From the NCBI RefSeq assembly GCF_056712565.1, contig NZ_CM160072.1: a stretch of 64,000 nucleotides of DNA. One strand, 5' to 3'. A program made the position numbers. The first letter of the stretch is position 1. Each line of letters starts with the position of its first letter. Below, one piece after another: positions 56,501 through 59,500 of the stretch.

Positions 56501-59500
56501 GACAATCAATCCAAAGCGCAGACGTGTCACGTTCAGTCCCAGCGAACGGGCTTCGTCGTCGGAAAGCGTGAGTAAATTCATGCGCCAGCGGAGAAAAAAC
56601 AGGGGCAAGGAGCCTATGAGAATGATCGGTGCAGCATAGCAGAGATCGCGTAAGGTCACGGTGGACAGCCCCCCCAGCAACCAGAAGGTAATTGACGGTA
56701 ACTGGGTATAAGGATCGGCCAGCGTTTTTATTAGCGATATCCCCGCTCCGCACAACGTTCCTAACGCAATGCCTACCAGCACCAGGGTTAAGATCGGATC
56801 GTGGCGGGTCACCCGACGCGTAATCAACCAGACGCCCGCGACCACCATCAGCCCGCCGCAAAATGCGTACAGCTGGATGTAAACAATGGATAATCCCCAC
56901 AGGATTGCCGCGCAGGCACCAAGTCCGGCACCGGCGGAGACGCCTAAAATATCCGGTGACACTAAGGGATTACGGAACATTCCCTGATAGGTGGTTCCGG
57001 CCCCTGCCAGCGCCGCGCCCAGAAACAGCGCAGCAAGAATACGCGGCACGCGGATTTGCCAGAAGACAATTTGTTCCTGCACAGGAACATTTTCTTGACG
57101 AAGAATGAGCGCCAGCAGTTGCTGCATATCGAGATGATAAGCCCCACTTACGGCGGCAAAAGTGATACTGATAGCTGCCAGCAGCAAAATACATCCGTTT
57201 ACGGTTCTCATTAGCTCGCCACCAATTTTTGATAGTCGGCGTCACTGAGTGAACAATGCCAGAACAGTTGGGCGTAATGCTGTATGTCACTTTTAAACTG
57301 GCGATTGATGGCGGGATCCAGCCAGGCGTGAAGTCTGCGTAATCCCAGAAGACGGTTGATTCCCGGCGGGGCATCCAGCCAGCCAAAGGGCAGGCCACTT
57401 AAAAATAAGATGCGTTGTTCCGCAACCGCTTTCACGCCCTGCCAGAGAGGATCACGACGAATAAAATCTGCAGTAACGGCCTCCTGAACCAGAATAATAT
57501 CCGGCTGCCAGCGCAGGAGATTTTCCATGGAAACCTGTGTCAGACCGTGGCGATCGGCTATTTGCGCGACGTTGTGCAAACCTAATAATTCCGCCGCCTC
57601 GGTATGCAACGAACCCTGTAAGCCCGTTTCCAGCCCTCGAGGACCGCGCGCAGCATAAAAGCTGAGATTAGCGGCGGGTGAGGTGGCGAATGCCTGAGCT
57701 TCACCAACGAAGCGGCTGGCGAGATTGGCTTGTTCTGCGGCGCGGTGCTCTTCGCCTAACGTTTTGCCAAGCGTTGTTAACTGTTCTGCTGATTGTTCCA
57801 GTTTCCCGTTAAGCAATAACCAGGGTATTTGTGTCTGTTCGCTAACCTGCCGTGCCTGGGAGATCCAGGTTTCATCCGTATTGCCGCAATCAACGACCAA
57901 ATCGGGATGTAACGCCATAAGCCCTTCCAGCGAGAGTGTGCTGGCGCGCCCGGCGAGTCGTCCCAGCCTGGGGAACTGGCGAATGTGCTCTGGCAATGGA
58001 ATTAATGCCTGACGGGCAAAATCAAAAGAGGAAAAACCGACCATTTTTTCTGGCGCGACAGCCAGCAATAGTAAATCGGCGGGCGCGCCTGCGCTGACGA
58101 TGCGTGTAATGTTTTGGGCTTCGGGAAGCGTCCGTGAGGCCCAGAATTTGACTGATTGTGCGAAGGACGGCAGATGATGCAGGAACAATGTCGACGCAAG
58201 AATCTGTGTAAACCTCCGTCTGGTTAGTGACATAAGTAATATCCTGATAATTAAAACCGCTATATACTTATACATATAGCGAAAAAGATCATGTTTGATG
58301 TCAAAATTTGTCTAAAGAGACAGAATGATTTGCTTGTTTCTTAAATAACACTTTGTTCCACAAGAAAATTGTCAGGGAGAATGGGGAGTGGGGGAAAATA
58401 TAAATAGAGGTGTAATGATTAACAAGTTGATAAAATAAAATTAAAATCTTCTCTAATAAAAGAAAATAAAGGCATAGACCGTAGAAAGAGTGGTATTTGG
58501 TATTTCGTGATGAAGAAAGAGCAATGCCAATTTTATGCACGTAATGGCATTGCTCGATATACAGTAAAGTTAAGGCGTAGGTTCCGCCTCTTTTTGTTTT
58601 AGCGGCTGTGTTGTTGATTCACTGAGTGGACGCGTCGCCGGAACATTGTCACACGGTTGCTCTTTCGGGCAGATCAAATCCAGCATTTTCAGCGTCACGC
58701 CATTGGTACAGCCAAAGCCATCCTGTAATGGATATTCGCCACCGCCGCCCCCTGTTCCGGTGGTGCTGACATCATATTTTTCCACCAGCTTTTTCTCCCG
58801 GTCATAGGTGTGCTGAACATTGGTCAGGAAGTGCCAGCTAATGTCCATCGCTACCTCTTTTTGCCCGTAGTTTTGTAATCCTTCAGTCGCGACCCACTGC
58901 AACGGTGCCCAGCCGTTTGGCGCATCCCATTGTTGCCCACTTTTCACCGACGTGGTGTTCAGGCCGCCGGGTTGCAGCAGATGTGTTTTCGTCGCCGTCG
59001 CCATTTTGCTGGCGCGATCTTTCGCTGCCGCATTGACGTACAGCGGGAACAGGGCGGCCGCGGTTAACTGATTGCGCACTTTATGACTTTTCAGGTCGTA
59101 ATCGGCATACCAGCCTTGTTGATCGTTCCACAGGTATTTTTCGATCCCTTTTTGACGGGCATTTGCCAGCGTTTCGTACTGGTTTGCCATCGCGTTATCT
59201 CCGATAGCTTTGCTGGCGCGGGCGAGGATTTTTTCCATTTTGAACATCAAGCTGTTCAGATCGACCGGTACGATGCTGGTGGTGCGTAAGGTGTTTAACT
59301 GCTGCGGATTGTCCATCCAGCGCGAGCTGAAATCCCAGCCAGACGCAGCGGCAGAGCGCAGGTCGCGGTAAATTTCAGTGGCAGGTCGATTCGGATTGCT
59401 TTTGGCAGTGGCAATATCTTCCACCCATGACTCTGGTCGTGGCGTATCGCGATCGTCCCAGTAGCGGTTGAGAAGGGTACCATCCTGAAGTTTTACAACG

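What the first reader, a model, noticed from the sequence alone, without database searches (positions are those of the whole stretch)
58258..58281. Perfect 8-bp-arm palindrome in the promoter region of the accessory uptake operon
CGCTATAT-N8-ATATAGCG lies ~25 bp upstream of the predicted start of the binding-protein gene, the first gene of the island operon. I could not find a convincing Fur box there, which is unusual for an iron-type uptake cluster. The half-site GCTATA/TATAGC resembles the MntR half-site (CATAGC) but in a different arrangement. It may be an operator for a regulator encoded elsewhere.
Basis: seen in the sequence. Interest (0 to 1): 0.45.

Follow-up and report, generated by a model that had tools for sequence, protein, structure and literature searches.

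The report
ModE (molybdate) operator of an accessory uptake operon
The palindrome is real and is almost certainly the binding site of the molybdate-sensing repressor ModE, which means this widespread E. coli "iron transporter" island is really a molybdenum-controlled uptake system – a new target of a well-known regulator rather than a new kind of element.

Summary
CGCTATAT-N8-ATATAGCG is present exactly at 58258-58281, 24 nt upstream of the ATG (58233, minus strand) of the first gene of a six-gene operon (binding protein, FecCD permease, ATPase, SAM-methyltransferase, ModD, TonB-dependent receptor) inserted next to treA in about 40% of complete E. coli genomes. An 8-bp-arm palindrome alone is not rare (70 in the window). 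This one, however, matches all 14 specified positions of the E. coli ModE box (CGnTATAT-N8-ATATAnCG), with the same spacing and arms as the modA, moaA, dmsA and napF sites of K-12. About 0.00025 such matches are expected per 64 kb. It is conserved at the same place in 33 of 34 orthologous loci from Escherichia to Shewanella, while the non-contacted positions vary without covariation. The operon is molybdenum-linked: it carries ModD, and its permease is closest to H. influenzae MolB. No Fur box, MntR-type arrangement or Rfam RNA is present. The centre lies 36.5 nt from the ATG (31.5 at modA), so the site must overlap the core promoter. The best model is repression by molybdate-bound ModE, which is encoded elsewhere. 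This is a new member of a known kind. Binding and regulation remain untested.

The parts
58258..58281 (.). 24-bp dyad CGCTATAT-N8-ATATAGCG, proposed ModE operator (Mo-box)
   Evidence: Sequence. It matches 14/14 of the ModE pattern and the K-12 modA/moaA/dmsA/napF sites. It is conserved in 33/34 orthologous loci. There is no arm covariation.
58291..58304 (-). TTGACATCAAACAT. TTGACA (58304-58299) is a perfect -35-like hexamer 17 nt upstream of the dyad. Alternatively the 14-mer is an FNR/CRP-type site (TTGAY-N4-nnCAA).
   Evidence: Read. TTGA and CA are at fixed distance from the dyad in all enterobacterial orthologs. The FNR reading is not above chance in the window alone. Its role is inferred.
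58242..58245 (-). Shine-Dalgarno AGGA, 8 nt before the ATG at 58233
   Evidence: CAGGA is conserved in orthologs.
57211..58233 (-). Periplasmic substrate-binding protein (Peripla_BP_2, 340 aa) with a twin-arginine signal MSLTRRRF
   Evidence: It is 25% identical to H. influenzae MolA.
56231..57211 (-). FecCD-family (type II ABC importer) permease, MolB-like
   Evidence: Pfam. The best solved-structure hit is HI1471/MolB, E 9e-65. It is 42% identical to MolB.
55476..56234 (-). ABC ATPase, MolC-like
   Evidence: It is 36% identical to MolC.
54654..55466 (-). Class I SAM-dependent methyltransferase, substrate unknown
   Evidence: It is syntenic in all complete orthologous loci.
53803..54657 (-). 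ModD (quinolinate-phosphoribosyltransferase-like 'molybdenum utilisation' protein)
   Evidence: TIGR01334, 504 bits against a cutoff of 179. It is 47% identical to H. influenzae ModD.
51807..53777 (-). TonB-dependent outer-membrane receptor, last gene of the operon
   Evidence: Syntenic.
58519..58555 (-). treA terminator-like hairpin (11-bp perfect stem followed by UUUCUU), which insulates the island operon from treA
   Evidence: (-19 kcal/mol, z -4.2).

Best explanation
The palindrome is an operator for the molybdate-sensing regulator ModE, which is encoded elsewhere in the chromosome, next to modABC. When cytoplasmic molybdate (or tungstate) is sufficient, the ModE dimer is switched into its DNA-binding form. 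It then occupies the 24-bp dyad, which overlaps the core promoter (-10/transcription start) of the island operon, and blocks transcription. Under molybdenum starvation ModE leaves, and the cell expresses a TonB-dependent receptor, a MolBC-like type II ABC importer, ModD and a methyltransferase. This is most simply read as an accessory molybdenum/tungsten scavenging pathway. Shown here: the sequence match to ModE sites, its conservation, its position, and the Mo-related gene content. Inferred: actual ModE binding, the direction of regulation (repression) and the transported substrate.
For: (1) The site matches 14/14 of CGnTATAT-N8-ATATAnCG. In K-12, the best consensus matches in the promoters of the four targets I recall as experimentally established ModE targets are modA CGTTATAT-N8-ACATAACG, moaA CGCTATAT-N8-ACATAGCG, dmsA CGATGTAT-N8-ATATAGCG and napF GGTTATAA-N8-ATATAGCG. 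The published E. coli consensus ATCGNTATATA-N6-TATATANCGAT is quoted in PMC545781. (2) Specificity is high. About 0.00025 exact matches are expected per 64 kb. In 470 kb of orthologous loci, every match of at least 12/14 lies at this promoter, except a second box in front of the receptor gene in two loci and one unplaced 12/14 site at L036:6588. (3) There is a clear phylogenetic footprint. The dyad is present at -41 to -58 from the ATG in 31 of 34 loci from Escherichia, Citrobacter, Yokenella, Klebsiella, Raoultella, Enterobacter, Serratia, Symbiopectobacterium, Erwinia, Pluralibacter and Shewanella (protein identity down to 50%), and at -276 in the two Affinibrenneria loci. The arms are conserved, while position 3, position 22 and (outside the enterics) the spacer vary. 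The variants seen, such as CGnTGTAT, also occur in K-12 ModE sites. (4) ModE is a core E. coli gene, found in 5391 of 5426 genomes. (5) The gene content is molybdenum-linked: ModD, a permease closest to MolB of the molybdate/tungstate importer MolBC-A, and ModD/ModE/TonB-dependent transporters clustered in the Z. mobilis nif cluster (PMC8594446). (6) Geometry: the dyad centre is 36.5 nt from the ATG, against 31.5 nt for the modA operator. A class I/II activator position is therefore impossible, and the site must lie over the -10/TSS. A perfect TTGACA lies 17 nt upstream. (7) By analogy, H. influenzae molB is repressed by molybdate through an 'unknown factor' (PMC4031551), and ModE-like dyads sit 22-30 nt upstream of molA-type genes in three Pasteurellaceae loci and 100 nt upstream in a fourth MolB-family locus (L050). 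(8) The allosteric activation of ModE DNA binding by molybdate is established (PMC11672702).
Against: There is no experimental binding or expression data for this promoter. The transcription start is unknown, and no good -10 hexamer sits at 17 nt from TTGACA (CGCTAT). The simple promoter scan did not call a promoter here. The binding protein is only 25% identical to MolA, and the operon has TonB-receptor and methyltransferase genes that the characterised Mol system lacks, so the substrate may not be free molybdate. I could not scan a whole genome to show that the motif is confined to ModE targets. I could not read Studholme & Pau 2003 or RegPrecise to see whether the site was already predicted.
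Confidence: 0.88

Rival explanations
1. It is a ModE site, but ModE activates rather than represses the operon, as it does at moaA, dmsA and napF.
For: Three of the four K-12 sites used for comparison belong to ModE-activated promoters (from my knowledge of the literature; the sites are). The arms are identical to the left arm of moaA and the right arms of dmsA/napF.
Against: The centre of the dyad is only 36.5 nt from the ATG, with the SD in between. A site at -41.5 or further upstream would put the TSS inside the coding sequence. The same tight spacing (centre 31-46 nt from the ATG) holds in nearly all orthologs. The homologous H. influenzae mol operon is repressed by molybdate (PMC4031551). 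An uptake system induced by sufficiency makes little regulatory sense.
Confidence: 0.06
2. It is an operator for a different, unidentified regulator that recognises a similar dyad.
For: Half-sites rich in TATA are low in complexity.
Against: The arrangement is opposite to the MntR box, and an MntR-type pattern scores at chance. The best Fur match is 13/19, which 19% of shuffles reach. No regulator gene is consistently adjacent: the upstream neighbours are treA, a FocA-like gene, dusA, metK, a GntR-like gene and others. The match to ModE sites is perfect, and the operon carries modD.
Confidence: 0.04
3. It acts as an RNA or DNA hairpin: a terminator or attenuator between treA and the operon, or a leader structure.
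For: The terminator scan flagged it on the minus strand (11 pairs including G-U, followed by GGTTTTAATTAT). It folds at -10 kcal/mol, z -3.5.
Against: The stem has only 3 G-C pairs. The T-tract is not conserved in orthologs. In 23 distinct orthologous dyads, covariation does not exceed shuffles, and pair 3-22 is unpaired in 8 of 23. There is no Rfam family. treA already has a much stronger hairpin at 58519-58555.
Confidence: 0.02
4. It is a chance palindrome in an AT-rich intergenic region.
For: There are 70 perfect 8-nt-arm inverted repeats with spacers of 0-20 nt in the window.
Against: The dyad is conserved at the same position across genera whose intergenic DNA is otherwise unalignable, and the expectation for the consensus match is 0.00025.
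Confidence: 0.005

Closest known systems
ModE operator of the E. coli modABC promoter (Mo-box)
   Same: Same 24-bp architecture (CGnTATAT-N8-AyATAnCG), with 13 of 16 arm positions identical. Same location immediately upstream of the first gene of a transport operon (centre 31.5 vs 36.5 nt from the ATG). Same expected logic: repression of uptake when molybdate is sufficient.
   Different: The controlled genes are not the ModABC type I importer. They are a TonB-dependent receptor plus a type II (FecCD/BtuCD-like) importer with ModD and a methyltransferase. The site is a perfect palindrome (modA has ACATAACG in the right arm). The spacer is itself conserved among enterics (ATGTAAAT), which suggests that promoter elements are embedded in it.
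Haemophilus influenzae MolBC-A (HI1470-HI1472) low-affinity molybdate/tungstate importer with ModD (HI1473)
   Same: The permease is 42%, the ATPase 36% and ModD 47% identical. MolB is the best solved-structure hit. molB is repressed by molybdate (PMC4031551). A ModE-like dyad CATTATAT-N8-GTATAATG lies 30 nt upstream of molA.
   Different: The binding protein is only 25% identical to MolA. The H. influenzae cluster has no TonB-dependent receptor or methyltransferase, and it is linked to a ModA-like type I system. The substrate of the E. coli system is unknown.
Fur-regulated siderophore/haem TonB-ABC uptake operons (the current database annotation, 'iron ABC transporter')
   Same: Same protein families (Peripla_BP_2, FecCD, ABC ATPase, TonB-dependent receptor).
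   Different: There is no Fur box, a ModE box sits in its place, and modD is in the operon. All NCBIfam iron-specific models score far below their cutoffs.

Membership tests
ModE operator (Mo-box) | 24-bp dyad matching CGnTATAT-N8-ATATAnCG (ATCGNTATATA-N6-TATATANCGAT) | tested here: met
   It matches 14/14 specified positions. The K-12 modA, moaA and dmsA sites score 13/14 and napF 12/14. The consensus is quoted in PMC545781.
ModE operator (Mo-box) | The organism encodes ModE | tested here: met
   modE is found in 5391 of 5426 complete E. coli genomes. It is not in the window, so the regulator acts in trans.
ModE operator (Mo-box) | Located in the promoter of molybdenum-related genes | tested here: met
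   The operon contains ModD (TIGR01334) and MolB/MolC-like transporter subunits. The dyad is 24 nt upstream of the first ATG.
ModE operator (Mo-box) | Conserved in orthologous promoters, with variation confined to non-contacted positions | tested here: met
   33 of 34 loci carry it. Columns 1, 4, 6, 8, 17, 18, 21, 23 and 24 are invariant, while columns 3 and 22 vary freely.
ModE operator (Mo-box) | Molybdate-dependent binding by ModE and Mo-dependent transcription | not testable with these tools
   This needs EMSA/footprinting and reporter assays. No paper in the searchable library reports it.
Fur box | A 19-bp match to GATAATGATAATCATTATC above chance in the promoter | tested here: not met
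   The best match is 13/19, which 19% of shuffles reach.
MntR operator | Inverted repeat with inward-facing CATAGC/GCTATG half-sites and a short spacer (pattern recalled from memory) | tested here: not met
   The half-sites here face outward and are 12 nt apart. The best pattern match is 10/16, which 53% of shuffles reach.
Intrinsic terminator / structured RNA | A stable G+C-rich stem followed by a conserved U-tract, or covarying pairs | tested here: not met
   Only 3 G-C pairs and -10 kcal/mol. The U-tract is not conserved. There is no covariation beyond shuffles and no Rfam hit.
MolBC-A type molybdate/tungstate importer (for the operon) | Type II ABC permease/ATPase orthologous to MolB/MolC, linked to ModD | tested here: met
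   42%, 36% and 47% identity respectively. MolB is the top PDB hit, E 9e-65, ahead of FhuB, HmuU and BtuC.
MolBC-A type molybdate/tungstate importer (for the operon) | Binding protein orthologous to MolA and binding molybdate/tungstate | tested here: inconclusive
   Only 25% identity, E 2e-10. The best PDB relative is the uncharacterised 4pag. Ligand binding was not tested.

The most novel reading that the evidence does not exclude
The island encodes a ModE-repressed, TonB-dependent pathway that scavenges molybdenum or tungsten as a chelate or complex (a 'molybdophore' or a host/microbiota-derived Mo species) rather than as free molybdate. The conserved methyltransferase and the QPRTase-like ModD would process the imported ligand in the cytoplasm. 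It would be the first TonB-dependent molybdenum acquisition system in Enterobacteriaceae. It is present in about 40% of E. coli, including B2/ExPEC and O157 lineages, and may be co-controlled by FNR through the conserved TTGAY-N4-nnCAA element.
Probability: 0.3. Interest if true: 0.75.

Novelty: new member of a known kind. Interest (0 to 1): 0.45.

Why it matters
The operon is annotated everywhere as an 'iron ABC transporter' and sits in about 40% of complete E. coli genomes (2144 of 5426), including ST131, APEC/UPEC B2 strains and O157 (PMC8046923). Recognising a textbook-quality ModE box in its promoter moves it from the iron to the molybdenum/tungsten regulon. This explains the missing Fur box and gives an immediately testable prediction: derepression on Mo starvation or in a modE deletion mutant. 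It also suggests that ModE is the 'unknown factor' behind molybdate repression of the H. influenzae mol operon. In addition, it points to a TonB-dependent route of Mo/W acquisition in enteric pathogens whose substrate and ModD/methyltransferase chemistry are unknown.

Tried and rejected
- Fur box: the best match is 13/19, at chance level. Rejected.
- MntR-type box (pattern from memory): chance level and the wrong half-site orientation. Rejected.
- FNR consensus in the window alone: 7/10, not above chance. It is kept only as a side observation, because the TTGA...CA positions are fixed in orthologs.
- Sigma-70 consensus scan: no promoter was called at the dyad. The -10 remains unresolved.
- Terminator or RNA structure: flagged, but rejected on weak energy, a non-conserved T-tract and no covariation. 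There are no Rfam hits.
- Local regulator: the upstream neighbours are not conserved, and there is no ModE homologue in the window or loci.
- Repeat or mobile-element end: the promoter region occurs once per genome and the pattern once in the window.
- Literature: nine searches found no report of ModE control of this operon. Studholme & Pau 2003, Anderson 2000 and Tirado-Lee 2011 are not held, so prior in-silico prediction cannot be excluded.
- A call to the listing of cluster members failed on a frame error and was not repeated.
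Full report
OBSERVATION. The + strand of the window reads CGCTATAT-ACTTATAC-ATATAGCG at 58258-58281, exactly as reported. The genes here are on the minus strand. The dyad lies 24 nt upstream of the ATG at 58233 of a Peripla_BP_2 binding-protein gene, with an AGGA Shine-Dalgarno at 58245-58242. The longest ORF starts at an ATG inside the dyad (58275). That start is neither the RefSeq start nor the conserved N-terminus (M-x-x-T-R-R).

A perfect 8+8 palindrome is not remarkable in itself. The window contains 70 such repeats with spacers of 0-20 nt, four of them with spacer 8. The significance comes from which sequence it is and from its conservation.

CONTEXT. The window is E. 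coli chromosome, 100% identical to a dog isolate and 99.8% to ATCC 11775, NU14, APEC O18 and others. Downstream of treA (58570-60267, minus strand) lies a six-gene minus-strand operon:
- binding protein, 57211-58233
- FecCD permease, 56231-57211
- ABC ATPase, 55476-56234
- class I SAM methyltransferase, 54654-55466
- ModD, 53803-54657
- TonB-dependent receptor, 51807-53777

The promoter region is present in 2144 of 5426 complete E. coli genomes, once per genome. treA itself is in 5322 genomes. An 11-bp perfect-stem hairpin followed by UUUCUU (58519-58555, -19 kcal/mol, z -4.2) sits just after treA. The operon is therefore expected to have its own promoter.

WHAT THE DYAD IS. The K-12 modA operator, fetched from NC_000913.3, is CGTTATAT-TGTCGCCT-ACATAACG. 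It has the same 8-8-8 architecture and lies 19 nt before the modA ATG. I scanned the promoters of three further ModE targets that I recall from the literature as experimentally established. The best sites were:
- moaA: CGCTATAT-N8-ACATAGCG
- dmsA: CGATGTAT-N8-ATATAGCG
- napF: GGTTATAA-N8-ATATAGCG

The published consensus ATCGNTATATA-N6-TATATANCGAT is quoted in PMC545781. The window site matches all 14 specified positions of CGnTATAT-N8-ATATAnCG. Its left arm equals that of moaA, and its right arm equals those of dmsA and napF. From base composition, 0.00025 exact matches are expected per 64 kb. The next best site in the window scores 11/14.

CONSERVATION. I built an alignment of binding-protein homologues and used it to fetch 34 loci from one-genome-per-species contigs. 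The genera covered are Escherichia (several species), Citrobacter, Yokenella, Klebsiella, Raoultella, Enterobacter, Serratia, Symbiopectobacterium, Affinibrenneria, Erwinia, Pluralibacter and Shewanella, with protein identity down to 50%.

The six-gene order is conserved. ModD is missing in Shewanella and a few other loci. In 33 of the 34 loci a 12-14/14 match to the ModE pattern lies directly upstream of the binding-protein gene. In 31 of them it is 41-58 nt from the ATG. In Affinibrenneria it is 276 nt upstream. The one locus without it has a truncated 5' end.

In the 470 kb fetched, every other position scores below 12/14, with three exceptions: a second box 39 nt before the receptor gene in Shewanella fodinae (14/14), a 12/14 box in the equivalent place in a Serratia locus, and one unplaced site in the degraded Pluralibacter locus.

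The flanking intergenic DNA is unalignable between genera, so this is a phylogenetic footprint. Across 23 distinct dyads, columns 1, 4, 6, 8, 17, 18, 21, 23 and 24 are invariant, while columns 3 and 22 vary freely. Tested as a helix, the arms show no covariation beyond shuffles (score 0.134 vs 0.113, 55/500), and pair 3-22 is unpaired in 8 of 23. That is the pattern expected for a protein-contacted dyad, not a hairpin. Within E. coli, the arms are invariant while position 3 and the spacer differ between lineages.

THE REGULATOR AND THE CARGO. modE is in 5391 of 5426 E. coli genomes. It is absent from the window and from the orthologous loci. No regulator gene is consistently adjacent.

The operon is molybdenum-linked. 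ModD scores 504 bits on TIGR01334. The permease's best solved relative is HI1471/MolB of the H. influenzae molybdate/tungstate importer MolBC-A (E 9e-65, ahead of FhuB, HmuU and BtuC). Against an H. influenzae-type locus retrieved here, the permease is 42%, the ATPase 36% and ModD 47% identical, but the binding protein only 25%.

MolBC-A is described as a low-affinity molybdate system whose molB transcript is repressed by molybdate through an 'unknown factor' (PMC4031551; PMC7759655). I find ModE-like dyads 22-30 nt upstream of molA-type genes in three Pasteurellaceae loci (11-12/14) and 100 nt upstream in one further MolB-family locus (L050, 13/14). Each is among the top hits of its 10-13 kb locus. 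This is supportive, but weaker evidence.

MECHANISM. The dyad centre (58269.5) is 36.5 nt from the ATG, with the SD in between. The corresponding distance at modA is 31.5 nt. A class I/II activator position (-41.5 or further) would place the TSS inside the coding sequence. The site must therefore overlap the -10/TSS region, which is the classical repressor position.

A perfect TTGACA lies 17 nt upstream of the dyad (58304-58299). TTGA and a CA dinucleotide 8-9 nt further on keep a fixed distance from the dyad in all enterobacterial orthologs. The -10 is unresolved. One reading is TTGACA-17-CGCTAT, a poor -10 (in two distant loci the equivalent is CATTAT). The other is that the 14-mer is an FNR/CRP-type site at -41.5 and an extended -10 (TGnAAATAT) lies in the conserved operator spacer ATGTAAAT. 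The simple scan called no promoter here, and the FNR match in the window alone is at chance level. Under either reading ModE occupancy would occlude RNA polymerase.

Molybdate binding switches ModE into its DNA-binding conformation (PMC11672702). The predicted behaviour is therefore that the operon is off when Mo (or W) is sufficient and on under Mo starvation. Binding, direction of regulation and substrate are all inferences.

REJECTED READINGS. Five alternatives were tested and rejected:
- Fur: best match 13/19, which 19% of shuffles reach.
- MntR: the half-site orientation is opposite, and a recalled pattern scores at chance.
- Terminator or RNA: flagged and folds at -10 kcal/mol, but it has only three G-C pairs, no conserved U-tract, no covariation and no Rfam family.
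- Repeat element: it is single-copy.
- Chance: excluded by the conservation.

COMPARISON AND NOVELTY. The element meets every computationally testable criterion of a ModE operator. What is new is the target: a TonB-receptor + type II ABC + methyltransferase + ModD operon that databases label 'iron ABC transporter'. Nine full-text searches found no report of ModE control of this operon. The only E. coli mentions are a 'ModD' Tat-substrate mutant in ExPEC PCN033 (PMC7549933) and modD/fecD/fepC/fbpA listed next to dhaKLM in O157 (PMC8046923). I could not read Studholme & Pau 2003 or consult RegPrecise, so an earlier in-silico prediction cannot be excluded.

VERDICT. My confidence that this is a ModE operator is about 0.88. 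It is a new member of a known kind, of moderate interest (0.45). The more novel possibility, a TonB-dependent Mo/W-chelate scavenging pathway in pathogenic E. coli, is open at a probability of about 0.3.

Noticed in passing
window 58291-58304 (minus strand): TTGACATCAAACAT. The TTGA and CA positions are at a fixed distance from the dyad in all enterobacterial orthologs (TTGAY-N4-nnCAA, 7-9 of 10 to the FNR consensus TTGAT-N4-ATCAA). This may be an FNR/CRP-type site at -41.5 with an extended -10 in the conserved operator spacer, or simply the -35.
   Followed up: partly
window 58519-58555: An 11-bp perfect-stem hairpin (GAGCAATGCCA/TGGCATTGCTC, 15-nt loop) followed by UUUCUU on the minus strand. 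It is the likely treA terminator and was missed by the simple scan because of its loop size.
   Followed up: yes
window 58233-58150 (minus strand), N-terminus of the binding protein: Twin-arginine signal MSLTRRRFTQILAS. R5 and R6 are invariant in 19 homologues. A Tat-exported type II ABC binding protein is unusual. An ExPEC study lists a 'ModD' Tat substrate that is probably this protein (PMC7549933).
   Followed up: partly
L031:10740-10763 (Shewanella fodinae); L030:9061-9084: A second ModE box (14/14 in L031, 12/14 in L030) lies directly upstream of the TonB-dependent receptor gene. In L031 ModD is absent and an intergenic gap has opened.
   Followed up: partly
L041:6905-6928 and 3879-3902 (H. 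influenzae-type mol locus); L047:4922; L049:1149, 1196, 4918; L050:4739: ModE-like dyads (11-13/14) lie upstream of molA-type genes and of a modA-like gene. ModE is therefore a candidate for the 'unknown factor' behind molybdate repression of molB reported in PMC4031551.
   Followed up: partly
L046 (E. coli MSB1_4I), equivalent to window ~58313: An IS1A element is inserted 9 nt upstream of the TTGACA hexamer. It replaces all upstream intergenic DNA but leaves the hexamer, the dyad and the gene intact.
   Followed up: no
window 58266-58273: The spacer of the operator differs between E. coli lineages: GTATAAGT here, GTGTAAGT in ST131 and others, ATGTAAAT in other phylogroups and most enterics. 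The window allele alone loses a TG that could be an extended -10 element.
   Followed up: partly
L022 and L023 (Affinibrenneria salicis): The box lies 276 nt upstream of the ATG, with a long leader that has no Rfam match. The same 15-kb locus appears twice on one scaffold.
   Followed up: partly
L003 (JAIJJM010000486.1): This contig is labelled as a Collinsella MAG but is 98% identical to the E. coli operon. It is probably a binning contaminant.
   Followed up: no
window 37629-37707 (+): Rfam C0299 sRNA (RF00119, 111.9 bits) is the only Rfam family above threshold in the window.
   Followed up: no
window 53803-55466: The methyltransferase and ModD are conserved with the transporter across genera, and the methyltransferase is more conserved than the binding protein. 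Their substrates are unknown. The weak best NCBIfam hits of the methyltransferase are to corrinoid-protein-associated and Mg-protoporphyrin methyltransferases.
   Followed up: no
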